Positions 37-64,000 of a stretch of 64,000 nt of DNA are shown here, piece after piece. The first letter of the stretch is position 1. Each line of letters begins with the position of its first letter. The notes under the pieces are model-generated. The model was not told the origin of the DNA. It ran no database searches and was given only the letters and a program-made list of their open reading frames with translations. Source of the DNA: a virus. Its lineage: Duplodnaviria > Heunggongvirae > Uroviricota > Caudoviricetes. The DNA is taken from IMG/VR virus record IMGVR_UViG_3300045253_000164, positions 26,314 to 90,313 of that record. One strand, given 5' to 3'. A program made the translations under genes and the position numbers.

Positions 37-1908
37 TCACCAGCGGCGTGCGTACTCCGGGAGGTAGGTCGTCGGAGAGGGCGGTGCGTTCGCGCGCGAT
101 ACCGCCGTGACGCTGGTCCGGGCCTTGTGCACGATCGCCAGCCAATAGCCCAGGGCCGACGATCCGTGGGAGCGTGTGAGCCCAGAGCCGTCGTCATCCT
201 CTGTCGTCTGGTTCACGTCGGTCCGATTGCCGTTCCAGACGCCATACTCGAAGTCTTTCCGGAGTTCCTCGGCAGCCGGATTGAGCACCAGAAAATTGTA
301 CTTGAGTGCGTGGTTCACGATTTCCAACCGATGGGCCACCGGCGGATTTTTCGGCGGCACCTTGAGCGTCACGGCGAATCCGTAGCCCGCAAAGGCGTGC
401 TTCATCCCCTGATAAGTCTTGATCCGGTTATGGACCGTCGACTTCTCTTCGGTCGCATCCCCGTAGATGTAGAGCGGCCCGGTGTGGCCGAGTTCCCCGG
501 CAATGCAGGTGCCCTGTCGCCCATACTGATCTTGATAGTTTGCGTCTTGCGCGAAGAGGTCATCAACGACCTTGCGAGAGCCGTAACGCGCCGTGAACTC
601 CAAGATGCCATCATCCACCATGGCGCCCCGCCGGCAGATTTCGTCAATGACCCGGAAGATTGGTTGCACAGGCCAGACCTGCGCGATTTCCCACACCAGT
701 GGATCGAAGTTGAAGTCGCAGCAGAGGACCAAGGGGCGCCGTGGATCGTAGGCCACGGGGGTGCCAATTGGGCATTCCGCGCCCCCCGTCATGTGCCGCT
801 CGTGAGTAAACGGAGAGTAGACCCGGCCACCGATGGAGCCTTCGAAGTTGGTTTCCAGCTCTTGCGCGACTGCCTCAGTGGTCATGGACAGCCGCCGGAC
901 CTCCTGCTCCTTCCACGCCTCATTCCGATGCGGATGGAGGGACCAGTGGATGCGATACCGGGCGTACTGTCCTGGGTATCGGGGTTGATCACCCTGCGGA
1001 AATGCTGCGTAGGCCTCTTGGTGAATACGGTAGAACGCGTTGGCTTTCCCGTGCGGCGTCGAGGTGAGAATCTTGCCGCGAGCGCAGGCTTGGTTGACCG
1101 ATGCCATGACCAGCTCGCTGTTTTCGACCCAAGCAAACTCATCCAGGAACGCCCGCCGATAGCCGCCGCCACGGCCAGGACTGCGGCTCGAACCAAACCC
1201 CAAGAGGCTGGTGCCGCGACTGCGGTTCACCACCCGCAGGTGCTTGAACTCCAGCGGCTGCTGCAGGAAGTCCGGCAGATGATCATGGAGAAAGCGAACC
1301 TTTCCGAACAGCGAATAGCTGGTGGAGTTCTCTCCACCGTCGTCCACGTTGTCCTCGACGCGGGACAGCGCCATCATCGGCCAGATGCGTTCGAACAAGA
1401 GATCATGAAGCGCGATTGCCATCATGATCCATGTGGCCATCATGCGGCGACTCTTCACGATGATCGCATCGTGCGGCGGACACAGGGCTTGCACCAGCAC
1501 CCACACCTGGGGCCAGTTGGGAATCAAGTCCAGCGACGACGGGACGCTCTCCATCGCCTGCTCGTCGTGTAGATTCTCCGCAGCGCAGTAGGTGGTCACG
1601 AAATAGAGGGGATTGGTGGCGCAGCGATACAGTTCGCGTGCCACCCACGCTTCAAGGTGCTCACTGCCTCTGTAATGCCAGTCGCCTGCTTCGAACACGT
1701 ACGCGGGGGGCAACTGATCGCTGGATGGGTCCAGTGACGGCAACTGCGGCAGCGACAGCAGCCGCCGGGCGATGCGGGTTGGCGTGCTCAGTACGGCATC
1801 GTCGTCACCGACGGACCGCAGGCTCGCGCACGCCCGCGCCACGCCTTCGCCAATGACGGCTTCACGGGGGGCGGCCTCGTCGATGAAGTCGCCAAGGGTG
1901 ATGGGCAT
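37..1908 (-). CDS. phage terminase large subunit (TerL)
   Basis: 623 aa. IIVKSRRMMATW resembles the degenerate k-x-R-Q-x-G-x-T ATPase-region motif of TerL proteins. The acidic C-terminal half is nuclease-like. It is the last gene of a packaging-type trio, directly abutting the upstream MTase stop at 1909. Confidence 0.55.
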   Translation of the reverse strand: MPITLGDFIDEAAPREAVIGEGVARACASLRSVGDDDAVLSTPTRIARRLLSLPQLPSLDPSSDQLPPAYVFEAGDWHYRGSEHLEAWVARELYRCATNPLYFVTTYCAAENLHDEQAMESVPSSLDLIPNWPQVWVLVQALCPPHDAIIVKSRRMMATWIMMAIALHDLLFERIWPMMALSRVEDNVDDGGENSTSYSLFGKVRFLHDHLPDFLQQPLEFKHLRVVNRSRGTSLLGFGSSRSPGRGGGYRRAFLDEFAWVENSELVMASVNQACARGKILTSTPHGKANAFYRIHQEAYAAFPQGDQPRYPGQYARYRIHWSLHPHRNEAWKEQEVRRLSMTTEAVAQELETNFEGSIGGRVYSPFTHERHMTGGAECPIGTPVAYDPRRPLVLCCDFNFDPLVWEIAQVWPVQPIFRVIDEICRRGAMVDDGILEFTARYGSRKVVDDLFAQDANYQDQYGRQGTCIAGELGHTGPLYIYGDATEEKSTVHNRIKTYQGMKHAFAGYGFAVTLKVPPKNPPVAHRLEIVNHALKYNFLVLNPAAEELRKDFEYGVWNGNRTDVNQTTEDDDGSGLTRSHGSSALGYWLAIVHKARTSVTAVSRANAPPSPTTYLPEYARRW

Positions 1909-24874: not shown

Positions 24875-26122
24875 TTACAGCTGTCCGGTCGTGGTCCCAT
24901 CGTTGATCAGGTACCAGAAGCGGCTGCCGCCTCCGATCCAGTCGACTTCGAAGCGCCGCCGCGAGCGGTAGCGCACAACGTCGAAGCTGAACGACATGCC
25001 CGAGTTGGGTCCCTCCTGGATCACCTCGAGCGGATCGCGCTCCTGGAAGACGATGCCGCGGGCCTTCTGACCCAACGCACAGGCCCAGTCGGGCATGTAG
25101 CGCTCGCAGACGTCCTTGATGCCCATGCCGGCCCACGGATTCGGCGACATCACACCACCGGGCATGCCAGCCAGCACGCCTTGGTTGGCGCCTGCCGCAG
25201 ACACCGTACCGCCGGTCACCGGGGCATTCGCTGCCGAGGCAAACGATTGGCCCGGCACCGCCGGGTAGAGGCCCGGTGCCAAGAGCAGCGCCGCGTTGAT
25301 CTTGTCCATCGCGCTGACGAGCAGCGTGTCCGGATTCACGACGATGCGGTTGTTCTGCGGATCGGTCGCAACCAGGAGCGCCTGATAGGCGTTCTTCATT
25401 GCGCCCATGGTGAGCTGGGTGAAGGACGAGGGCCGATTGCCGGTCGTGGCGCTGTACAGCGAGGTGCTGAACGGCGAGGTGATCGATGTGCCGGCCGGGT
25501 TGGTCGTCGAGTAGTTCGACGCCGGGACGGTCAACGGCCCATAGGTCCGGGCGCTCCCCAAGAAGCGATAGATCGCCCAGATGCCCTCGGTCGTGGCCAT
25601 GCCACGGCCCATGCCGCCGGCGCGCTTGGCGATCTGACCGGTCTGGTCGTCGTCGAAGAGTTCGCGCTCGAGCGAGATCATTCGACCGAACTTCCGATTA
25701 CGCAGCGAGCTATCTTCGCCGACGATATTCTGGTCGGAGAACTGTTGCCCCGCGTTCACCGGCAGCGCGATCGCCTCGGTGTAGAGCGGCGCATACCACT
25801 CGGCCACCGCGTTGCTGCTGGCGACATCACAGTACTCGCGCCACTTGACGTCGACGGCGTCATACCAGTCGGTAGCGATCGCCTGCACGCCCTTGCGCAG
25901 AAGGAAGCCCAGGGCGCTCTCGGAATTGGCCTCACGGAGCCGGTTGCAGGCCCCTTCGACCATCTCCATCCAGCGCCGCAGAGATCCACGCCGGCCCGCG
26001 GCTTCCTTGAAGCCCTTGATGGCCGGAATCGCCAGGTCGACGAGCTCGCCGATGCCACGCATGGCCCGCTCGCGCCGCGACAGGCCGCCGATGCTCTTGA
26101 TGTCTGCTTCTGTGAACTTCAT
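24875..26122 (-). CDS. major capsid protein candidate (HK97-fold type)
   Basis: 415 aa, located after the scaffold-like and small decoration-like genes. Composition and size are typical of an MCP. Confidence 0.5.
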   Translation of the reverse strand: MKFTEADIKSIGGLSRRERAMRGIGELVDLAIPAIKGFKEAAGRRGSLRRWMEMVEGACNRLREANSESALGFLLRKGVQAIATDWYDAVDVKWREYCDVASSNAVAEWYAPLYTEAIALPVNAGQQFSDQNIVGEDSSLRNRKFGRMISLERELFDDDQTGQIAKRAGGMGRGMATTEGIWAIYRFLGSARTYGPLTVPASNYSTTNPAGTSITSPFSTSLYSATTGNRPSSFTQLTMGAMKNAYQALLVATDPQNNRIVVNPDTLLVSAMDKINAALLLAPGLYPAVPGQSFASAANAPVTGGTVSAAGANQGVLAGMPGGVMSPNPWAGMGIKDVCERYMPDWACALGQKARGIVFQERDPLEVIQEGPNSGMSFSFDVVRYRSRRRFEVDWIGGGSRFWYLINDGTTTGQL

Positions 26123-28738: not shown

Positions 28739-28820
28739 GGCGAGGACGGTGTCCTCCCAGCCGGGCGGGGCCTTCTCAATCTGGTGTGCGTCTGCGCGCT
28801 CTCTCACGTCTCGCGATCCC

Positions 28821-28858
28821 AAAAAGAAAACGGACGACCTCCGTCTGGAGATCGCCCG
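28821..28858 (-). terminator. Rho-independent terminator candidate (minus strand)
   Basis: Minus strand reads CGGGCGATCTCC-AGAC-GGAGGTCGTCCG (12-bp stem, 2 mismatches) followed by TTTTCTTTTT. It separates the upstream accessory genes from the head module. Confidence 0.5.
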
Positions 28859-28982
28859 TTTGAGTTCAGTCCGCCTGCGAGGCTTGCGCCGCCGCAGGGC
28901 GTTATCGTCAAACTGACTTGTTTCGGCGGGTAAAGGAAAGGTCAGCGCATGTCAAGCGGGAAGTTGAAAAAAGTTTGAGGAG

Positions 28983-45644: not shown

Positions 45645-45882
45645 GGGCGCGCGCCGGGGACCGGCGACCGTGGGTGGGGCCATGTCAAAAGCGCGGGTAA
45701 CGAGAGATGGTTCATGTGTCAAGCGGTTTCCGTGCGATGATCGTAAAGATGGCGCCGTGCAGCGCTGGGAGGACCGGATGCACTTCCCAGATCGACCAAC
45801 CGGCGGACTCCAGGGCGTTCAACTGCTGCTCCAGATAGAGCTGGTCGACGTTGGCTTGGATCTTCCAGGTATACGGCATCGT

Positions 45883-46206
45883 TCACTCCCGCGAGCGCAC
45901 AAAGACGCGGTGCTGGCCCCAGGTCGACGCGGAATCGGTGACCTCGCGAAGTTCGCCAAGTTCAACCATTCGGTCCAACGCGGCCAGCGCGAGCCAGGAG
46001 TCACCGATCATGACGTGGCTCGATTGGAATGCCCCAGCCTTCCCCAACAGGTCCTGGACCTTGTCGCGAATAGCCAGGAAGCTGCGCTGTCCGTCTTCGG
46101 TGAACAGTCGGTCCCGCTGGCCGGCATAGCTGTATCCCGGCCGCTCTGCTTCATGGGCGCGCATGGCGGCAAGCCTCCCTTCTTCTCTGGCAATGGCTTT
46201 GCACAA
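45883..46206 (-). CDS. hypothetical protein upstream of the island
   Basis: 107 aa; its 5' end abuts the GCACAA(A/G)AGC motif cluster. Confidence 0.35.
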   Translation of the reverse strand: MCKAIAREEGRLAAMRAHEAERPGYSYAGQRDRLFTEDGQRSFLAIRDKVQDLLGKAGAFQSSHVMIGDSWLALAALDRMVELGELREVTDSASTWGQHRVFVRSRE

Positions 46207-46259
46207 GAGCTAGCACAATCGCGCCTGCTTTTGTGCAGAAATGGGCGCCGCACAAAAGC
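46197..46259. promoter_or_regulatory. operator-like motif cluster: TTGCACAAGAGC, plus perfect inverted repeat GCTTTTGTGC-N13-GCACAAAAGC
   Basis: Seen directly in sequence; GCTTTTGTGC at 46227-46236 and GCACAAAAGC at 46250-46259. The same GCTTTTGTGCAGA 13-mer recurs at 47968. Confidence 0.45.
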
Positions 46260-46381: not shown

Positions 46382-46579
46382 GTGAGACAAGGGCGCATGC
46401 CACGGAAAGAGCGCACCGTTACAATCTGGGTGTGCAACCGCTGCGATCACGAGTGGCAGTCGCGCACCGATGAGGAACCGACGGTCTGCGCAAACTGCAA
46501 GAGTCCGTATTGGGACAAGCCGCGCCGCAACGCGGTCCCGAAGAAGACGCACCGAGGTGGAAAGCATGCCGCAGGTTGA
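46382..46579 (+). CDS. zinc-ribbon protein
   Basis: 65 aa, GTG start; CNRCDHEW...CANCKSPYW (two CxxC). It overlaps the start of the downstream MTase. Confidence 0.45.
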   Translation: MRQGRMPRKERTVTIWVCNRCDHEWQSRTDEEPTVCANCKSPYWDKPRRNAVPKKTHRGGKHAAG

Positions 46580-47534
46580 ACTCGCTGATCATGAATTAGG
46601 GCCAGCGGCGGCGCGGATGGACGACGGAGTTGCCTGGAAGGTGCAGAAGGGCGACGCCTACGATCTCCTACAGAAAGTTGCGCCCGCATCCGTCGACTTG
46701 ATTTTAACAAGGCCGCCCTATTGGGGGCATCGCTCATACGGGCAGGATCACAACTGGAACACGCTCCGCGAATGGCTGGCGACTAACAAGGATGCGGTCA
46801 CCATCCCATCCTACGAGTGGTATCGCGCACAAGGCGGCGTGCTTGGGCTGGAACCGCTGCCCGAGTGGTACGTGGCCCACATGGTCGAAATTTTCGAGCA
46901 CGCCCGCACCTGCATGAAGCCCACGGGAAGCATGTGGGTCAACATGGGCGATACGTACTTCGCGCGCTGGGCCAGCATCCGCGAAGGTGGTCGGCAAGGA
47001 CTCGGCGGGAATCCGCGCGCGCGGCGGCGCACGCCAATGGGCGGATACCGCCAGGAAAAACAACTCCTCATGGTGCCGGCGCGCTTCGCAATAGCGATGC
47101 AGGACAGCCGCTGGATACTCCGCAACGACCTGATTTGGTACAAGCCCAATGTTCCACCCCGACCCGAGTCGGATCGCCTACGCTTGGCTCACGAACACTT
47201 CTTTCACTTCGTGAAGCGACCGAAGATCGGGCGGGCCAAATATTACTATGCCATCGACCAAGTTGAACCTGGCACCACTGACGTGGTGACCTGTTACGCC
47301 AGCGCCGGTGGAAACGGCCACAGCGCCACATTTCCAGAGAAGCTGATCCGACCGCGCATCCTGAGTTCCTGCCCGGCAGGTGGCCTCACGATTGATCCCT
47401 TCTGCGGGACGGGCCGCGCGCTAACGGTCGCTGTCGAATCAGGCCGCCGCGCCATTGGCTTCGATTCTTCGGCAATGTATGTACGGGCAACACGTGCTGC
47501 ATTGCAGAAGCTGAATGCCGAAGCGCACAAATAA
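46566..47534 (+). CDS. amino-(N6A/N4C) DNA methyltransferase, beta-class
   Basis: Start at ATG 46566 (MPQVELADHELG). Motif IV DLILTRPPYW comes first; motif I IDPFCGTGRALTVAVESGRRAIGFDSS is near the C-terminus. Confidence 0.7.
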   Translation: MPQVELADHELGPAAARMDDGVAWKVQKGDAYDLLQKVAPASVDLILTRPPYWGHRSYGQDHNWNTLREWLATNKDAVTIPSYEWYRAQGGVLGLEPLPEWYVAHMVEIFEHARTCMKPTGSMWVNMGDTYFARWASIREGGRQGLGGNPRARRRTPMGGYRQEKQLLMVPARFAIAMQDSRWILRNDLIWYKPNVPPRPESDRLRLAHEHFFHFVKRPKIGRAKYYYAIDQVEPGTTDVVTCYASAGGNGHSATFPEKLIRPRILSSCPAGGLTIDPFCGTGRALTVAVESGRRAIGFDSSAMYVRATRAALQKLNAEAHK

Positions 47535-47967: not shown

Positions 47968-48015
47968 GCTTTTGTGCAGACGGCCGAGCTATTGTGCGGG
48001 AGCCAGCTATTGTGC
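47968..48015. promoter_or_regulatory. operator-like motif cluster: GCTTTTGTGCAGA, GCTATTGTGC x2
   Basis: Three spaced copies of the GCT(T/A)TTGTGC motif just upstream of the start of gene 47694..47954. Confidence 0.45.
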
Positions 48016-48261
48016 AAAGCCTCTGGCAATCAGCCTCTTCGTGCTTTCGATTAGGCGATCTGGAATGAAGGCATCACAAATCATCGCGCAGCTCCTTTCG
48101 CGCAACTTTGCATCCACGCCAGAAACGCCCGCCAGCACGCGACGCACAGGTGCATCTTGGTCACGTTCCACGCCTCATTCGTCGGCGGTGAAAAAGCTAA
48201 GCCGCCTGGAGCATCCAATTCCTGAGAGCACCGCGCGCACGTGACCTTGATCATCGCTCCC

Positions 48262-57718: not shown

Positions 57719-59242
57719 CTACTTCACCGTCTTGAGCTGCACCTGGAGATCGCCGCTAGTCGCTCTAGTCGTGCTGGCAATCCCCAGCGTACCATCAGCG
57801 GCTCGATCGACCGAGACGCTGGCCGTGTCCAGGATCGATGCGACGTCTGTGAAGGTCGGTAGGACGCCGGGTATGTCGCTGACGGTCGCTTGCCGGAGCA
57901 CAGTGCCGCCGCTGGCGCCGGCCACCGGATAGAACGCGAGCCATGCACTTGGCTTGCGGAGAATCCTCGTCGTGAACCGCAGGCCCGGGCCCAATGAGTC
58001 GGCATCCACCGGCGGCTCGAGTAGAATGGTCTTGACGGCCGCTATGCCACCGGCAGACGGCCGTTGAAATAGCGTCAGCCGCGACTGCGTCAGGCGACCG
58101 CCAGCCGTGCCCTGTCTGTCGAGCCGCTCCGTCCAGAGCGCGGCGAAGTGCCCGGCCCCATCGCCCGCGAGTTGATTGTTCGTCTGCTCGAGAAAGGATC
58201 CGGGAATGATCCGACTCTGCGAGCTCGCAATGTTGGCGCGCTGATTCAGGGAATAGAGCAGGACGCCGCCCCACATGCTCCCGGCGTCGCAAACAACCGT
58301 GGCCAGCCAGCCGCCGGCGGGATTCCAGGCGAACGCCGGATTGACAGAATGCGATCCCATGACCTTGAGTGTGATCTGGATTCCGGGAGTGAACTTCGTC
58401 GCGCCCGTCAGTGAGCACTTGAAGAAGTAGGTGCATTGGTGCATCGGATTCGCTTGCCAATCCGACTCTGCGCCAATCAGCCAGCCATTGCCGTTGGTCT
58501 GCGGAAAGTCGACGTCGTTGGTGACCGGCATCATGTCGCCGATGCCGCCATGGACGCCCAGGAAGTCGAGTAGCGTGGCGAACGTCGACGAGAGGGTACC
58601 GGTGACCGGATCCAGCGTATAGAGCAGCTGATGCGTCGTGCGTGTGAGCGAGCCATCAGGACGCGGGGCCCCGAGCGGGCCGATCATCTCGTTGACGACG
58701 ATGCCAATCACCTTCGCCCCCGGGTGCCAGGCGGCCAGGTAGACCGGCTCCCGATCGTACCGATGGATATCGAGGAGCTTTCGGGCGGTGACCTTCGGCG
58801 TGCCATCGAAGCCATTGAGCGCATACCAGAGTTCCGAGACGGCATGCTGATCTTGAAGTCCAGCATCGACGCGATTCTGAATCCAGAGCATCGCCCAGCC
58901 GACGTCGGTGGCGAAGAGCCGGACGCGGCGAATCGCCTGGACGGCGTCGCTGTGCACAAGCCCCGCCATGTCGGGCTGCGGAGGCACGGCCGCAGGTAAC
59001 TCCTGCAGGAAGGCGCCGGCCGGAAAGGTCGTGATTTGACCAGCGACCGCTTGCGCGATGAGGTGCGCGTCGTTCATCGTCACCTTCCCGTCGTTGTCGA
59101 CATCGGCGCAGCGCTTCTGATCGGCCGTCAGCACCGAGGGCTTGCCAGCGGCGATCGCCTGCAGTTCTTGCTCGACGAGGACGACGTCCTGCATCGAGAG
59201 GGCTGCATTTCCGGAAACGTCACCGAGTAGTAGCTTCGCCAT
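57719..59242 (-). CDS. dockerin-repeat-containing protein
   Basis: 507 aa; N-terminal GDVSGNAALSMQDVVLVEQ and ADVDNDGKVTMNDAHLIAQAV form two dockerin-type Ca-binding repeats. The rest is a Gly/Trp-rich beta-type region. Confidence 0.5.
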   Translation of the reverse strand: MAKLLLGDVSGNAALSMQDVVLVEQELQAIAAGKPSVLTADQKRCADVDNDGKVTMNDAHLIAQAVAGQITTFPAGAFLQELPAAVPPQPDMAGLVHSDAVQAIRRVRLFATDVGWAMLWIQNRVDAGLQDQHAVSELWYALNGFDGTPKVTARKLLDIHRYDREPVYLAAWHPGAKVIGIVVNEMIGPLGAPRPDGSLTRTTHQLLYTLDPVTGTLSSTFATLLDFLGVHGGIGDMMPVTNDVDFPQTNGNGWLIGAESDWQANPMHQCTYFFKCSLTGATKFTPGIQITLKVMGSHSVNPAFAWNPAGGWLATVVCDAGSMWGGVLLYSLNQRANIASSQSRIIPGSFLEQTNNQLAGDGAGHFAALWTERLDRQGTAGGRLTQSRLTLFQRPSAGGIAAVKTILLEPPVDADSLGPGLRFTTRILRKPSAWLAFYPVAGASGGTVLRQATVSDIPGVLPTFTDVASILDTASVSVDRAADGTLGIASTTRATSGDLQVQLKTVK

Positions 59243-61120: not shown

Positions 61121-61525
61121 TCACGCCCCCGCTTTCGCTGGTGGCGGTTTCGGTAGGAGCTTCGCAAAGCACCGGCGCCCGACCTTGGTGTCGTCGGTAG
61201 GGTTGCCGTAACAGTCGGTGATGATTGCCCGCCCGTGCTCGGCGAGCGTCTGCAACGCCCACGCATTCGCCGTGAGCGCCATGCTGTCGAGGACGTCGGG
61301 ACGGTTGTCGTCGCCGGCGCAGTGCTGATTCGCCATGTCCGTGAGCACGTCGAGCAGTTCCCGCACCTGCCGCTCCTGCTCCTGCTTCTCCAGCCGCAGC
61401 CGGGCGACTTCGCGCAGGGTGTCGGTAAGGTTATGGATCGTGGCGGGCCGTGCGCCCGTTAGCCACGCCTCCTCCGCACCCGTCAGCATGTCGCGCTCTT
61501 CTGCCGTCAGATCGTCAGTGGCCAT
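61121..61525 (-). CDS. hypothetical protein
   Basis: 134 aa, acidic and helical. Confidence 0.35.
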   Translation of the reverse strand: MATDDLTAEERDMLTGAEEAWLTGARPATIHNLTDTLREVARLRLEKQEQERQVRELLDVLTDMANQHCAGDDNRPDVLDSMALTANAWALQTLAEHGRAIITDCYGNPTDDTKVGRRCFAKLLPKPPPAKAGA

Positions 61526-61940
61526 TGCGCGCCTCCGTTGGGGACTTCACCGCGGCAAGAATACTGTCCGCCTCGATCAGCGCCATGTCGATGGACCCCT
61601 TGTGCCAATCCCGCTGCGGCACTCCGACCTCGACGGCGTCGCGCAATTCCCGCAGCGCCAGGCGGGTGCGGGCCAGGTCGCGCAGGGCGGCGGCGTAGTG
61701 GTTGCGGGCGTGGACGATCAGGGCGGCATCCTCATCGGTGTTGCAGTCCGCCGTTTCGCAGGCCGCTACGATGGAGATCAAGCGGTTCGGCGGTTCCGTG
61801 CGTTCCCATGTCACATAGGGCGGCGAATGCGGTGTGCGAACCTTTAGCGTCCACTCCCCCGGCGTTGCCGCCGCGTCGAGCCGCAGCCCTTCGGCGATGT
61901 CAGCGTCCGTCAGCGCGGCGGGGCTCTCGTCCTGTGCCAT
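61515..61940 (-). CDS. hypothetical protein
   Basis: Start at MAQDESP (ATG 61940, 1-nt TGATG overlap). Confidence 0.35.
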   Translation of the reverse strand: MAQDESPAALTDADIAEGLRLDAAATPGEWTLKVRTPHSPPYVTWERTEPPNRLISIVAACETADCNTDEDAALIVHARNHYAAALRDLARTRLALRELRDAVEVGVPQRDWHKGSIDMALIEADSILAAVKSPTEARNGH

Positions 61941-62119
61941 CAGCCCACCACCGCTGAACAGCCCGCGTAGTGCGGGGTTCCGAGATGCAACATGGCCCGA
62001 CACTCCGGGCACTGCTGGAAGTGCGAGCAGGATTTCAGGTGGACGTTGAAGGTGCAGAAGCACTCCGGGCAGGGTGTGTCGGGCGTGATGATCTCGGTGG
62101 GCATGAGGGTGTCAGACAT
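61940..62119 (-). CDS. small Cys-rich zinc-binding protein
   Basis: 59 aa; CPECFC...CSHFQQCPEC; ATG at 62119 overlaps the upstream TGA (seen in sequence). Confidence 0.35.
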   Translation of the reverse strand: MSDTLMPTEIITPDTPCPECFCTFNVHLKSCSHFQQCPECRAMLHLGTPHYAGCSAVVG

Positions 62120-62670
62120 CACGCGACCTCGCCTGTGCTTGCATCGTGCGCTCGAAACACCTTGTGGCATCCGTGCACGAAGTCGTCGAAGTCAATGGCG
62201 ATAAGATCGAGGATGCGAAAGAGCCGCGCTACTTCCTCACGGGAGAGCGCCAGCATTGCCCCACCAATCGCCACATGCAGCGCCGCCTCTGCAACGAACG
62301 CCCCGGGCGTCATGTGCAACGCGCTAGCCGCCTCAGAGATCGCCGCCAATTCTTCCGCGTCGAATACACTGAGTACTGCATCCATTTCTGGTTCGCCGGT
62401 AATCCGATAAGTATCGACCGTGTCGAACGGAGCCGCCTTGCCACGCGTATGGTTGTGCGTGCTGCACACCGGCTCGACGCGCAACGGCTCCAAGTAACTG
62501 CGATGATCATACTGGCGCGCTGGCGTTCCGTCCCCGCAATCCGTGCACAGCCGCGCAGACGCTGGCGGAAGATGGCCCCGCTGCACTGCTGTCGAAATGA
62601 TCAAGTTAGCGAGGCCGCGCAACGTCCGATGCTTGGCGCGGTTAATCCGCCGATGAGATAGCTTTCCCAT
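62119..62670 (-). CDS. HNH-like zinc-finger domain fused to an RHH domain
   Basis: CTDCGDGTPARQYDHRSYLEPLRVEPVCSTHNH (HNH-like); C-terminal SVFDAEELAAISEAASALHMTPGAFVAEAALHVA is ribbon-helix-helix-like. Confidence 0.4.
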   Translation of the reverse strand: MGKLSHRRINRAKHRTLRGLANLIISTAVQRGHLPPASARLCTDCGDGTPARQYDHRSYLEPLRVEPVCSTHNHTRGKAAPFDTVDTYRITGEPEMDAVLSVFDAEELAAISEAASALHMTPGAFVAEAALHVAIGGAMLALSREEVARLFRILDLIAIDFDDFVHGCHKVFRAHDASTGEVA

Positions 62671-62685
62671 TGTGGGCGGACCCGC

Positions 62686-62862
62686 TTAGGCAGCTTGCAA
62701 CAGATCGTTCAGCGCCTTGCGCACGAACGGGCTCAGCTGATCATACCCGTGCCGTTTGGCGAGCGCTTCGTATCGCGCTCGGAGTTCTGCCGTGCAGCGG
62801 ACCATGATGTAAGCCTGGTCCAGCCGCGCCTTGGGCCGCGTGTTTCGCTTGGGGGTTTTCAT
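62686..62862 (-). CDS. 58-aa ribbon-helix-helix (CopG/Arc-like) protein, absent from the ORF track
   Basis: Translated by hand: MKTPKRNTRPKARLDQAYIMVRCTAELRARYEALAKRHGYDQLSPFVRKALNDLLQAA*. SD AAGGGGA is 4 nt upstream of the ATG. The left arm of the inverted repeat lies in its promoter region. Confidence 0.55.
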   Translation of the reverse strand: MKTPKRNTRPKARLDQAYIMVRCTAELRARYEALAKRHGYDQLSPFVRKALNDLLQAA

Positions 62863-62874
62863 ACGGTCCCCTTT

Positions 62875-62904
62875 TTAATGCGGACCGCAATACAATGTCA
62901 AGCG
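62875..62904. promoter_or_regulatory. left arm of the 30-bp inverted repeat (TTGACA-containing; -35/-10-like on the minus strand)
   Basis: TTAATGCGGACCGCAATACAATGTCAAGCG; its reverse complement is 28/30 identical to 63325..63354. Minus-strand reading gives cgcTTGACA-N17-TTAAAA, then SD-ATG of the 58-aa RHH gene. Confidence 0.5.
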
Positions 62905-62929
62905 AATAGTTAGCGGAGCGGAAACTTTT

Positions 62930-63187
62930 TTAATCGGGGGGCACGAGGCGCCAGCCGCGCACCAGTTTCAGCAGGGCGCTGCGGGCGAAGTTGGCCGTGG
63001 TTTCCTCCGCCGCAATGGCGGCATCATCAATGAGCCGTTTCTGATCTGCGTCAACGCGGATCATGAGGAAGGATTCCTTGCGGGGGCGCTTGGCGACAAT
63101 CCGTCGCGCCGGTGGGGGCTGTTGCCTCGCTCGGGCCATCCATATCACCTTTGAGGGCTTTTCTTCGTCACCGCCGTCGCCCACCAC
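62930..63187 (-). CDS. ribbon-helix-helix (CopG/ParD-like) regulator
   Basis: SFLMIRVDADQKRLIDDAAIAAEETTANFARSALLKLV; probable start at MARARQQ (ATG 63139). Confidence 0.5.
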   Translation of the reverse strand: MVGDGGDEEKPSKVIWMARARQQPPPARRIVAKRPRKESFLMIRVDADQKRLIDDAAIAAEETTANFARSALLKLVRGWRLVPPD

Positions 63188-63324
63188 CGTGTCCCCCGTC
63201 TGCGCATTGTGGCTACACCTTGGTGACTGCCTACCTGATGTACATCCGCATACGGACGTGAATCAACCATCCGACCCGCGATTTTGCGGCGCTTTTCGGA
63301 AATGTGAACGACGCGCAATCTTTC

Positions 63325-63354
63325 CGCTTGACATTGTATTGCGTTCCGCATTAG
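63325..63354. promoter_or_regulatory. right arm of the 30-bp inverted repeat (TTGACA-N17-TTAGAA on the plus strand)
   Basis: CGCTTGACATTGTATTGCGTTCCGCATTAG, followed by AAAAGG and a GTG/ATG at 63364. Confidence 0.5.
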
Positions 63355-63396
63355 AAAAGGCGCGTGATGTTCACGGCGCCCACCCACCCACAGCCC

Positions 63397-63609
63397 TCAC
63401 CGCGGCCACCCCGCCAACGGTGCACGCCCGGCCAGCAGCAGATCGAGCGTGTAGATCACGGCGACCATGGCTGTAGCAATCGCGAGAATGCGGACAATCC
63501 AGTCGGTGTCGGCGCGGGCCATGAGCGCGATCATGCGCGTGAACAGGTAACAGCCCACCATCAACCCTATATCGGGGATCATGCGGCTACTCCCGCAGCG
63601 CGTCAGCAT
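63397..63609 (-). CDS. small membrane protein candidate
   Basis: Two hydrophobic helices (IGLMVGCYLFTRMIALMA; IVRILAIATAMVAVIYTLDLLL). It competes with the antisense plus-strand ORF 63364..63774 (low-complexity Pro/Gln-rich); which one is real is uncertain. Confidence 0.3.
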   Translation of the reverse strand: MLTRCGSSRMIPDIGLMVGCYLFTRMIALMARADTDWIVRILAIATAMVAVIYTLDLLLAGRAPLAGWPR

Positions 63610-63761
63610 GTCTCCCCGCCGCTCAGCCCCAGGGGCGCTGCCGGGCGGGACGTTGCAGCTATTTCGGCTGACTTGTCAAGCGACAACACCGACGACGATT
63701 TCGAGCCCGCCGACGATCCACTGTGGCTGGCGGATTTCGACCTGGGAGAATTGGAGGACGC

Positions 63762-64000
63762 ATGGGAAGGATAGTGGAGGTGCGGACGCAGAAAGAGCTA
63801 GACGCCGCGCTCCAGCAATATAACCAAGGCCGCACCGCGCAAATCGTACTCGTCGGCGACGGTCGGTTTGTGCTCACGACGAGCGGGCACCTTTACGTTA
63901 TGGGGTCCTCGCAGCCGCACGTGGTAGCGTGGGGGTCCTCGCAGCCGTACGTCGAAGCGCGGGAGTCCTCGCAGCCGCACGGGGTAGCGTGGGGGTCCTC
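63762..64000 (+). CDS. partial CDS (runs off the window) with decapeptide repeats
   Basis: GGAGGAcgcATG at 63762; open to the window end. MGRIVEVRTQKELDAALQQYNQGRTAQIVLVGDGRFVLTTSGHLYVMGSSQPHVVAWGSSQPYVEARESSQPHGVAWGSS. Confidence 0.4.
   Translation, partial: MGRIVEVRTQKELDAALQQYNQGRTAQIVLVGDGRFVLTTSGHLYVMGSSQPHVVAWGSSQPYVEARESSQPHGVAWGS
63901..64000 (+). repeat. 30-bp tandem direct repeats (>=3.3 copies, continuing beyond the window)
   Basis: tggggtcctcgcagccgcacgtggtagcg / tgggggtcctcgcagccgtacgtcgaagcg / cgggagtcctcgcagccgcacggggtagcg / tgggggtcctc. Confidence 0.7.

What the first reader, a model, noticed from the sequence alone, without database searches (positions are those of the whole stretch)
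62686..63367. Immunity-like switch: a 30-bp inverted repeat with TTGACA flanking an RHH gene, plus an unannotated 58-aa RHH ORF
Arms at 62875-62904 and 63325-63354 are 28/30 identical in inverted orientation. Each reads cgcTTGACA-N17-TTA(A/G)AA outward, followed by an SD and a start codon: leftward into a hand-translated 58-aa RHH ORF (62686..62862, missed by the 60-aa cutoff), and rightward into a GTG/ATG at 63364. Between the arms sits a second RHH (CopG/ParD-like) gene (62930..63187). Two RHH repressors with duplicated divergent promoter/operator elements look like a lysis-lysogeny or plasmid-copy-control-type switch.
Basis: seen in the sequence. Interest (0 to 1): 0.6.

Follow-up and report, generated by a model that had tools for sequence, protein, structure and literature searches.

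The report
Twin leaderless promoters flanking phage regulators
Two almost identical 33-bp promoter-like cassettes point away from each other at the head of an uncultured phage's early genes, and one launches a tiny, probably ribbon-helix-helix regulator on a nearly leaderless mRNA; this looks like an ordinary repressor/operator control region built from an orphan protein family, not a demonstrated lysis-lysogeny switch.

Summary
The inverted repeat is real and far beyond chance: 28/30 identical, against a best of 20-23/30 in simulations, and it is the top inverted repeat in the 64-kb window. Each arm reads CGC-TTGACA, 18 nt, TA(A/G)AAA, 9 nt, ATG.

The same TTGACA-N33-ATG geometry occurs at a third site in the window. 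It also occurs in front of the only small homologue of the 58-aa protein, on another metagenome contig (L005) where there is no SD. The arms are therefore best read as near-leaderless promoters, and the "SD" would not be in the arm-initiated transcript.

A motif next to the -35, TTGT(A/G)TTGC, is shared only by the arms and the L005 elements. The two proteins have an identical ribbon, YIMVRCT. This makes the 58-aa protein the likely repressor of both arms.

RHH assignments rest on sub-threshold hits only:
- 58-aa family: NikA-like, best E 6e-4.
- 85-aa ORF: weaker still, with borderline codon usage.

The rightward ATG/GTG opens a codon-usage shadow ORF that is antisense to a real 61-70-aa two-TM gene. 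No integrase or other recombinase was found, so a lysogeny role is unproven.

This is a new member of a known kind, of modest interest.

The parts
62869..62915 (-). Arm 1: promoter/operator cassette facing left. CGC 62904..62902, TTGACA 62901..62896, 18-nt spacer containing TTGTATTGC and the palindrome TGCGGTCCGCA, -10-like TAAAAA 62877..62872, 9 nt, then ATG 62862.
63314..63360 (+). Arm 2: the same cassette facing right. CGC 63325-63327, TTGACA 63328-63333, 18-nt spacer, TAGAAA 63352-63357, 9 nt, then ATG 63367. The half-sites CGCAAT 63314-63319 and ATTGCG 63338-63343 bracket the -35.
62686..62862 (-). 58-aa gene ('RHH58'): an orphan NikA/Arc-like ribbon-helix-helix candidate and the probable repressor of both arms.
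   Evidence: Good codon statistics. Called by JGI and Logan. Two homologues found by exhaustive HMMER. 3 of 3 family members hit NikA-like, best E 6e-4, below the curated cut-off.
62930..63187 (-). 85-aa ORF (alternative start ATG 63139, 69 aa) between the arms: a possible second RHH-like protein with a basic, disordered N-terminus.
   Evidence: TacA1 E 0.07. hhalign to the RHH58 family is in register, P 0.0015, probability 17%. Codon log-likelihood ratio is borderline, 0.02 / -0.04. No homologue anywhere. The AF2 single-sequence model shows two helices at 47-61 and 65-76 at low confidence.
63281..63308 (-). Promoter-like site TTCACA-16-CAAAAT, back-to-back with arm 2 (19 bp between the -35 hexamers), facing the 85-aa ORF. 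An ATG at N32 (63270) opens a 41-codon uORF that ends at 63145, 5 nt before ATG 63139.
63397..63609 (-). 61-70-aa two-TM ORF (alternative start 63582, with GGGAG 7 nt upstream). Arm 2 would be transcribed antisense to it.
   Evidence: GC3 0.82, and coding log-likelihood ratio positive against all five other frames.
63350..63381 (-). Terminator-like hairpin plus U-run just after the TM ORF. The U-run is the complement of arm 2's A-run.
63674..63682 (-). CGCTTGACA -35-like element upstream of the TM ORF, convergent with arm 2.
63364..63774 (+). Long ORF opened by arm 2's ATG. Probably not a conventional gene: it is an antisense shadow over 63397-63609. It ends 13 nt past ATG 63762. The last 33 codons (63673-63774) have mild coding signal.
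63762..64000 (+). First clear plus-strand gene. It runs off the window and contains decapeptide repeats. It is the likely target of rightward transcription from arm 2.
62119..62670 (-). 183-aa gene immediately downstream of RHH58. The N-terminus has an HNH-like CxxC...H..Y..PL.V...C..H motif, and the C-terminus a weak NikA-like RHH segment. It mirrors the HNH + RHH58-like fusion P0003.
   Evidence: motif level only; BLASTP not significant
45683..45725 (-). Third CGCTTGACA-N33-ATG site, in frame with a glycosyltransferase ORF. It shows that the geometry is a promoter class of this phage.

Best explanation
The two arms are duplicated copies of one host-sigma70-type promoter with a built-in operator, set divergently at the head of the phage's leftward early operon.

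Shown from sequence and comparison:
- Each arm is CGC-TTGACA, 18 nt, TA(A/G)AAA, 9 nt, ATG.
- The same -35-to-ATG distance recurs at a third site in the window and in front of the homologous gene in an unrelated contig.

Inferred:
1. RNA polymerase starts 1-3 nt before the ATG. Arm 1 therefore makes a near-leaderless mRNA for the 58-aa RHH-like protein and the HNH-like gene behind it.
2. Read-through from the upstream promoter (63308..63281) also reaches the 58-aa gene and uses the AGGGGA SD.
3. The 58-aa protein binds as a dimer or tetramer to the TTGT(A/G)TTGC element abutting the -35, and to the flanking half-sites CGCAAT/ATTGCG at arm 2. This represses its own promoter and the rightward promoter together.
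4. When arm 2 is free it transcribes rightward, antisense to and convergent with the small 2-TM gene and its promoter, toward the plus-strand genes that begin at 63762.
5. The 85-aa ORF between the arms may be a second RHH-like regulator expressed from its own promoter.

Whether this circuit decides lysogeny or only times early transcription is not known.
For: - The repeat is far beyond chance and is present in an independent assembly.
- CGCTTGACA occurs 5 times against 0.68 expected. All are intergenic, and 4 of 5 are co-oriented with downstream genes.
- TTGACA-N33-ATG occurs 3 times against 0.3 expected, with a maximum of 2 in 100 simulations. The three open ORFs of 58, 135 and 340 codons.
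- On L005 the homologue P0004 (45% identical) starts at TTGACA-N33-ATG with no SD. An inverted sister element reads TTGACATTGTGTTGCAC...TAGAAG-N9-ATG.
- The four-way alignment keeps TTGACA, GTnTTGC, TAnA and ATG in register.
- The motif after the -35 is absent from the three other CGCTTGACA sites.
- The ribbon residues YIMVRCT are identical in the 58-aa protein and P0004.
- Symmetric half-site arrays surround the divergent -35 in both loci.
- All three family members hit the RHH family NikA-like, best E 6e-4.
- No terminator lies between the 85-aa and 58-aa ORFs, and there is a promoter-like site at 63308..63281.
Against: - There is no experimental or transcriptomic evidence.
- The -10-like hexamers lack the conserved T at -7, and the consensus scan did not call the arms as promoters. 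The host is unknown.
- Every RHH hit is below the curated thresholds.
- Single-sequence AF2 models and Foldseek were uninformative.
- Only two comparator contigs exist, so the operator inference rests on four elements.
- Arm 2 points into the 3' end of a real opposite-strand gene, and no discrete product can be assigned to it within the window.
- Arm 1 lacks the left half-site seen at arm 2.
Confidence: 0.55

Rival explanations
1. Arm 2 is an operator only. The copy at 63314-63360 does not fire as a promoter. It serves as a second binding site, so the RHH protein bound at both arms loops about 420 bp of DNA and shuts off the promoter at 63308 and the 85-aa gene trapped between the arms.
For: - The two sites are near-identical and about 450 bp apart.
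- The full palindrome CGCAAT-N18-ATTGCG occurs only at arm 2, directly upstream of the -35 of the 63308 promoter.
- There is no credible protein gene directly downstream of arm 2.
Against: - Arm 2 keeps every promoter feature, including the ATG at N33. A pure operator would not need these.
- In L005 the equivalent inverted element clearly faces a gene.
Confidence: 0.1
2. Arm 2's main job is antisense control. It drives an RNA complementary to the small 2-TM gene and collides with transcription from the CGCTTGACA promoter at 63682, in the manner of a type I toxin-antitoxin pair or convergent-promoter interference.
For: - The 2-TM ORF is real by codon statistics and has its own promoter-like site and terminator-like hairpin. 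Arm 2 sits at its 3' end, facing in.
Against: - No plus-strand terminator was found between 63367 and the window end, so no discrete sRNA is defined.
- There is no Rfam match.
- The TM protein has no family hit.
- At 61-70 aa with two TM segments, it is larger than typical type I toxins.
Confidence: 0.12
3. The repeat acts at the RNA level. In transcripts reading through from the 63682 promoter, the two arms pair into a duplex of about 47 bp. This encloses the 85-aa ORF and buries the SD and AUG of the 58-aa gene, acting as a processing site or translational gate.
For: - The minimum-free-energy fold of 62840-63400 (-) pairs the arms, z = -3.1.
- Arm 1 also forms a local hairpin over the SD/AUG, z = -3.3.
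Against: - Any inverted repeat will fold this way.
- A terminator-like hairpin precedes arm 2 on that transcript.
- Arm 2 lies upstream of the nearer promoter at 63308, so most transcripts would carry only arm 1.
- In L005 both elements lie upstream of both transcription starts, where RNA pairing is impossible, yet the sequence core is conserved.
- The two arm mismatches are not compensatory.
Confidence: 0.08
4. A recent, selectively neutral duplication of a promoter fragment. Arm 2 is a by-product with no role of its own.
For: - There are only two mismatches in 33 nt, and similarity stops within about 47 nt.
- There are no relatives of this phage in which to test conservation.
Against: - The same divergent two-element layout is found next to the homologue in an otherwise unrelated contig.
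- Arm 2 is integrated with a back-to-back promoter and symmetric half-sites.
Confidence: 0.12
5. The arms are the recombination sites of an invertible DNA segment, or the terminal inverted repeats of a small mobile cassette carrying the 85-aa gene.
For: Inverted repeats of about 30-47 bp flank a 398-bp segment that contains a promoter-like site.
Against: - No recombinase or transposase was found among the window ORFs scanned.
- There is no target-site duplication.
- The independent contig L004 has the same orientation.
- In L005 the two elements are only 26 bp apart.
Confidence: 0.03

Closest known systems
Phage P22 immI region (Mnt and Arc ribbon-helix-helix repressors with divergent Pant/Pmnt) (from established knowledge)
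   Same: Small RHH repressors in a phage, operators overlapping divergent promoters, and probably autoregulation.
   Different: - In P22 the two genes are divergent and have different operators at overlapping promoters.
- Here both small genes are co-directional, and the two promoter cassettes are near-identical copies about 430 bp apart.
- No antirepressor homologue is present.
- Similarity is only a sub-threshold match to the Arc-like PHROG (E 0.06).
NikA-like / MobC relaxosome accessory RHH proteins (Pfam PF21983, PF19514)
   Same: These are the best-scoring sequence families for all three members of the 58-aa family. The beta-strand, helix, G...S turn and second helix align in register.
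   Different: - Scores are 13-18 bits against a cut-off of 27.
- There is no relaxase, oriT or conjugation context.
- The genomic setting is a phage early region.
Lambda PRM-cI, and leaderless first ORFs of actinobacterial transcripts (PMC4633059; 10.1101/834739; PMC9031893)
   Same: - A regulator gene whose start codon sits at the transcript's 5' end.
- In mycobacteria, leaderless mRNAs often begin with short unannotated ORFs ahead of the operon (abstract of 10.1101/834739). This matches the ATG-first ORFs at arm 2, at the 63308 promoter and in L005.
   Different: - The repressor fold differs: HTH in lambda.
- Transcription starts here are predicted, not mapped.
- The predicted leader is 1-3 nt rather than 0.
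- The host is unknown.
Omega (pSM19035) and CopG (pMV158) plasmid RHH repressors (from established knowledge)
   Same: One small RHH protein controlling several promoters through repeated short operator units overlapping the -35. CopG additionally works alongside an antisense RNA.
   Different: - Those are plasmid copy-control and partition systems.
- No replication genes are present here.
- The operator units differ in sequence and arrangement.
Face-to-face promoter switches of coliphages 186 and P2 (from established knowledge)
   Same: Arm 2 and the CGCTTGACA promoter at 63682 are convergent, so transcriptional interference is possible.
   Different: - The separation is about 350 bp with a whole gene in between, against tens of bp in 186 and P2.
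- There is no CI/Apl-type pair.
- This is untested.

Membership tests
Ribbon-helix-helix superfamily (58-aa protein) | Significant match to a curated RHH family model | tested here: inconclusive
   - RHH_10 E 0.072; NikA-like E 0.11 (13 bits against a cut-off of 27); Arc-like PHROG E 0.062; Tn5252_Orf10 E 0.09.
- All 3 family members hit NikA-like, best E 6e-4, still below the cut-off.
- There is no PDB sequence match.
Ribbon-helix-helix superfamily (58-aa protein) | N-terminal beta-strand, then helix, turn with G...S/T N-cap, then helix, forming an intertwined dimer | tested here: inconclusive
   - The pattern YIMVRCT / AELRARYEALAKRHG / LSPFVRKALNDLL fits, with invariant G39, S44 and P45 in the family alignment.
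- The single-sequence AF2 model gave two helices and no strand (pLDDT 73), and Foldseek gave nothing.
- The dimer was not modelled.
Ribbon-helix-helix superfamily (85-aa ORF) | Significant family match, or homology to a known RHH | tested here: inconclusive
   - TacA1 E 0.069.
- hhalign to the RHH58 family is in register, P 0.0015 but probability 17%.
- No homologues were found.
- AF2 pLDDT was 57 and Foldseek was uninformative.
- Codon usage is borderline.
Sigma70-type promoter | -35 TTGACA and -10 TAnnnT at 16-18 nt spacing | tested here: inconclusive
   - The -35 is perfect, and the spacer is 18 nt.
- The -10-like hexamers TAAAAA/TAGAAA have T-12 and A-11 but no T-7, so the consensus scan did not call them.
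- The same TA(A/G)A at the same spacing is seen in L005.
Leaderless (5'-AUG) transcription unit | Start codon at a fixed, TSS-compatible distance from the promoter, and no SD requirement | tested here: met
   - TTGACA-N33-ATG occurs 3 times in the window against 0.3 expected.
- The same N33 occurs in L005 with no SD, and N32 at two further promoters.
- The actual transcription start is not testable with these tools.
Phage lysis-lysogeny immunity switch | Temperate lifestyle markers (integrase/excisionase or partition/replication module) linked to the repressor region | tested here: not met
   - No integrase or recombinase was found in any scanned ORF of the 64-kb window.
- About 26 kb of the 90-kb source contig lies outside the window and could not be fetched.
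- Only the remote fusion homologue P0003 lies next to Xis-like and Int genes.
Phage lysis-lysogeny immunity switch | Repressor binding to shared operators at divergent promoters | not testable with these tools
   Only sequence-level support is available: duplicated cassettes, a conserved motif next to the -35, and half-site symmetry.
Invertible promoter segment (inverton) | Site-specific recombinase nearby, and both orientations present in populations | tested here: not met
   No recombinase was found. The independent contig L004 has the same orientation.
Type I toxin-antitoxin | Small hydrophobic toxin plus a discrete antisense sRNA with its own promoter and terminator | tested here: not met
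   - A 2-TM ORF and an antisense-facing promoter are present.
- There is no plus-strand terminator and no Rfam family.

The most novel reading that the evidence does not exclude
Every promoter in this control region places an ATG 32-33 nt after the -35. This holds for arm 1, arm 2, the 63308 promoter and both L005 elements.

Where the first real gene lies further downstream, that ATG opens an ORF that stops within -5 to +13 nt of the gene's start:
- 135 codons from arm 2, read antisense across the 2-TM gene;
- 41 codons from the 63308 promoter;
- 26 codons in L005.

The unexcluded reading is an RHH-only phage switch in which leaderless 'bridge' ORFs are translated. Translation would carry ribosomes, and protection from premature termination, to distant genes. 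The rightward bridge would at the same time silence the opposite-strand membrane-protein gene by convergent transcription. The result would be a bistable choice between leftward and rightward programmes without any CI/Cro-type protein.
Probability: 0.1. Interest if true: 0.6.

Novelty: new member of a known kind. Interest (0 to 1): 0.3.

Why it matters
If correct, it defines the operator, promoter class and autoregulatory logic of an orphan RHH regulator family. Only three members were found among about 15 billion predicted proteins. The family sits in a very divergent, uncultured, high-GC phage.

It also gives a simple sequence rule, TTGACA-N33-ATG, for finding near-leaderless early promoters in such phages.

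It does not overturn anything known. Repressor/operator regions with duplicated sites and leaderless regulator mRNAs are textbook. The possible use of translated leaderless bridge ORFs and convergent transcription is the only part that could be of wider interest.

Tried and rejected
**Searches for relatives that found nothing**
- DNA similarity of 61500-64000 to 50,697 phage records: none.
- Exact 19-mer of the arm in viral contigs: three hits, all the same unrelated coding sequence, so chance.
- Word-index protein searches: only the self-hit for the 58-aa protein, nothing for the 85-aa protein, and nothing new with the family profile.
- Related-locus scans gave nothing, apart from one false positive (L007, a 15-residue coiled-coil match):
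  - the 183-aa protein in metagenome and viral contigs;
  - the family profile in metagenome, viral and genome contigs;
  - the 69-aa form of the 85-aa ORF in viral and genome contigs.
- tblastn of the 58-aa protein and P0004 against phages and plasmids: none.
- Degenerate promoter-cassette pattern in viral contigs: none.
- P0002, a 522-aa repeat protein from the HMMER search, was judged a repeat-inflated false positive.

**Structure and RNA checks that were uninformative**
- PDB sequence searches: nothing relevant.
- AF2 single-sequence models were poor, and Foldseek returned only generic helical hairpins.
- Rfam found no family in the region or the whole window, and there are no tRNAs.

**Context that could not be recovered**
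- The rest of the 90-kb source contig could not be fetched, and exact look-ups of the TM ORF and the plus-strand ORF found nothing.

**Interpretations rejected**
- The plus-strand ORF 63364..63774 as a conventional gene, on codon statistics.
- Inverton or MITE readings: no recombinase, no target-site duplication, and a single orientation.
- HNH homology between the 183-aa protein and P0003: BLASTP was not significant, so the link is kept only as a motif-level note.
Full report
**Setting**

The window is a 64% G+C, phage-like genome. It carries a large terminase subunit at 37..1908, a major-head-like protein at 24875..26122, several DNA methyltransferases, very large tail-like proteins, and a block of about 20 kb of sugar-modifying enzymes. 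Nearly all genes are on the minus strand.

It is very distant from any cultured phage. The terminase is at most 29% identical over less than half its length, and the region has no DNA match. No integrase, recombinase, tRNA or Rfam family was found among the ORFs and sequence scanned.

The finding lies at the right end, where the leftward gene array begins. A plus-strand gene starts at 63762.

Yes.
- The arms are 62869-62915 and 63314-63360: 47 nt, 85% complementary, 398 nt apart.
- The 33-nt core CGCTTGACATTGTATTGCGKTCCGCATTARAAA occurs exactly twice, against none in 100 shuffles.
- Identity is 28/30, against a best of 20-23/30 in 30 simulated 6-kb sequences.
- It is the best inverted repeat of the whole window.
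- A 1376-nt contig from an independent assembly (L004) is 100% identical across both arms, so the repeat is not an assembly artefact and has the same orientation there.

**Which ORFs are real?**

I trained a codon-usage log-likelihood test on 26 long genes of the window. True genes score 0.18 ± 0.10 per codon against the worst alternative frame, and antisense frames score -0.25 or below.

| ORF | Score | Reading |
|---|---|---|
| 58-aa, 62686..62862 (-) | 0.14 | coding |
| 2-TM, 63397..63609 (-), or from 63582 | 0.13-0.16, GC3 0.82 | coding |
| plus-strand gene from 63762 | 0.16 | coding |
| 85-aa, 62930..63187 (-) | 0.02 (-0.04 for the 69-aa form) | borderline |
| plus-strand ORF 63364..63774, overlap with the TM ORF | -0.20 | antisense shadow |

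The 58-aa ORF is not unannotated. It is a JGI 'hypothetical protein' on a 90,313-bp contig, and the Logan assembly also calls it.

**What are the arms?**

CGCTTGACA occurs five times in the window against 0.68 expected. All five are intergenic. Four point the same way as the genes, and arm 2 is the exception.

Each arm reads TTGACA, 18 nt, TA(A/G)AAA, 9 nt, ATG. The exact string TTGACA-N33-ATG occurs three times against 0.3 expected, with a maximum of 2 in 100 simulations:
- at arm 1, opening the 58-aa gene;
- at arm 2;
- at 45722, where the ATG at 45683 is in frame with a glycosyltransferase ORF.

With the -10-like hexamer ending 9 nt before the ATG, transcription should begin 1-3 nt before the start codon. 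The SD-like AGGGGA lies at or upstream of that start. It could only serve transcripts that read through from upstream.

**Comparative evidence**

Word-indexed searches found no relatives. An exhaustive HMMER search of 1.84 billion representatives found two.

P0004 (62 aa, 45% identical) lies on the otherwise unrelated 1.7-kb contig L005.
- Its ATG sits exactly 33 nt after a TTGACA, and there is no SD.
- 26 bp upstream lies an inverted sister element, TTGACATTGTGTTGCAC...TAGAAG-N9-ATG, facing a divergent gene.
- In a four-way alignment of the two arms and the two L005 elements, TTGACA, GTnTTGC, TAnA and ATG stay in register.
- The 10 nt after the -35 (TTGTATTGCG here; TTGTGTTGCA and AGGTGTTGCA in L005) are absent from the three other CGCTTGACA sites of the window.
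- The predicted DNA-reading ribbon is identical in the two proteins: YIMVRCT.
- Both loci have symmetric half-sites around the -35 of the promoter that diverges from the RHH gene. These are CGCAAT-N18-ATTGCG at arm 2, and nested GTGCAAC/GTTGCAC pairs in L005.

This is the main support for reading the arms as promoter-plus-operator cassettes recognised by the 58-aa protein. It also argues against RNA-level or recombination-site readings, because both L005 elements lie upstream of both predicted transcription starts and are only 26 bp apart.

P0003 (123 aa) is an HNH-type domain fused to a domain 53% identical to residues 16-53 of the 58-aa protein. It lies on L006 beside an HTH_17 excisionase-like gene and an integrase N-terminus.

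**Protein identity**

The 58-aa family matches only RHH families, all below threshold:
- RHH_10, NikA-like, Arc-like PHROG and Tn5252_Orf10, at E 0.06-0.11 for the window protein;
- NikA-like for all three family members, best E 6e-4;
- MobC_2 at E 0.004-0.009.

The family alignment shows the strand/helix/G...S-P/helix pattern.

The 85-aa ORF has only a TacA1 hit at E 0.07, plus an in-register but weak hhalign match to the 58-aa family. It has no homologues anywhere.

AF2 single-sequence models and Foldseek could not test the fold. 'RHH' is therefore likely for the 58-aa protein and merely plausible for the 85-aa ORF.

**Layout, read along the minus strand**

1. CGCTTGACA promoter-like site at 63682..63674.
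2. The 2-TM gene.
3. A terminator-like hairpin and U-run at 63381..63350, whose U-run is the complement of arm 2's A-run.
4. Arm 2, pointing backwards.
5. 19 bp further on, a promoter-like TTCACA-16-CAAAAT at 63308..63281.
6. The 85-aa ORF, with no terminator after it.
7. Arm 1.
8. The 58-aa gene.
9. A 183-aa protein with an HNH-like N-terminal motif and a weak RHH-like C-terminus.

Topologically this matches L005: a divergent promoter pair with the RHH gene on one side. The difference is that about 400 bp carrying a second small gene sits between the two cassettes.

**Most likely mechanism (confidence about 0.55)**

- The arms are co-regulated, outward-facing, near-leaderless promoters.
- The 58-aa protein represses both by binding next to the -35.
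- Arm 1 gives autoregulated expression of the regulator and of the genes behind it.
- Arm 2 drives rightward transcription toward the plus-strand genes. This is antisense to the 2-TM gene and convergent with its promoter.

The steps from 'promoter' onward are inferred. Only the sequence architecture and its recurrence are shown.

**Rivals**

- Arm 2 as operator only, with DNA looping (0.10).
- A dedicated antisense or interference role against the TM gene (0.12).
- A long-range RNA duplex (0.08). The fold does pair the arms, but any inverted repeat would do so.
- A neutral duplication (0.12).
- An inverton or mobile-cassette reading (0.03).

**Comparison with known systems**

The region works like P22 immI (Arc/Mnt), like plasmid Omega/CopG circuits, and like lambda PRM-cI in its leaderless regulator mRNA.

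Membership in any named family fails or is inconclusive on the tested features. RHH family scores are below cut-off, no temperate markers were found, and there is no recombinase.

Leaderless first ORFs ahead of operons are well described in mycobacteria (PMC4633059; 10.1101/834739). That fits an unexpected regularity seen here. The ATGs at the leaderless position of arm 2, of the 63308 promoter and of the L005 leftward element open ORFs of 135, 41 and 26 codons. These end 13 nt after, 5 nt before and 8 nt after the start codon of the next gene. This was noticed post hoc and may be chance, at roughly 1e-3 by a crude estimate. It is the most novel reading left open.

**Verdict**

- It is wrong or unproven on SD use, on the rightward gene, and on the lysogeny or copy-control role.
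- This is a new, orphan member of a familiar kind of regulatory region.
- Interest: 0.3.

Noticed in passing
window 30672-51179 (- strand): A block of about 20 kb of sugar and modification enzymes sits inside a phage-like genome. It holds six glycosyltransferases, two Methyltransf_24 proteins, an aminotransferase, a Nol-like carbamoyltransferase and two NAD-dependent epimerases. No DNA polymerase, primase or integrase was detected among the window ORFs scanned.
   Followed up: partly
window 46188-46214 and 48002-48028: A second inverted repeat (27 nt, 81%) brackets the only clear plus-strand gene inside the array, a DNA methyltransferase at 46470..47534.
   Followed up: no
window 28820-28958 (- strand): CGCTTGACA-N17-TACCCGC is the same extended motif as at 45717-45725. 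Here it is followed by about 100 nt of non-coding sequence containing a GC hairpin, and then a hairpin plus U-run, so it could be a small RNA. There is no Rfam match.
   Followed up: partly
window 63762-64000 (+ strand): A plus-strand gene runs off the window end and contains 30-nt tandem repeats that encode a decapeptide repeat (GSSQPHVVAW-like). It has a weak hit to PHROG 15773 (E 0.006).
   Followed up: no
window 63270-63145 (-), 63367-63774 (+); L005 261-181 (-): Leaderless-position ATGs open 41-, 135- and 26-codon ORFs that stop within -5 to +13 nt of the next gene's start codon. This may be translational coupling through leaderless upstream ORFs. The ORFs show no coding-type GC3.
   Followed up: partly
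window 62119-62670 (-); L006 128-499: The 183-aa protein after the 58-aa gene and the remote homologue P0003 both combine an HNH-like CxxC...H..Y..PL.V...C..H motif with an RHH-like C-terminal segment. In P0003 that segment is homologous to the 58-aa protein. This suggests a functional link between this RHH family and an HNH nuclease.
   Followed up: partly
window 63673-63774 (+ strand): A 33-codon acidic ORF (TTG start, ...DDDFEPADDPLWLADFDLGELEDAWEG) has coding-like codon statistics (log-likelihood ratio 0.13). It has no SD, and it overlaps the start of the 63762 gene.
   Followed up: no
window 57719-59242 (- strand): A 507-aa protein has an N-terminal dockerin type I domain (E 1.5e-6) and no other recognisable domain, which is unusual in a phage early/middle region.
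   Followed up: no
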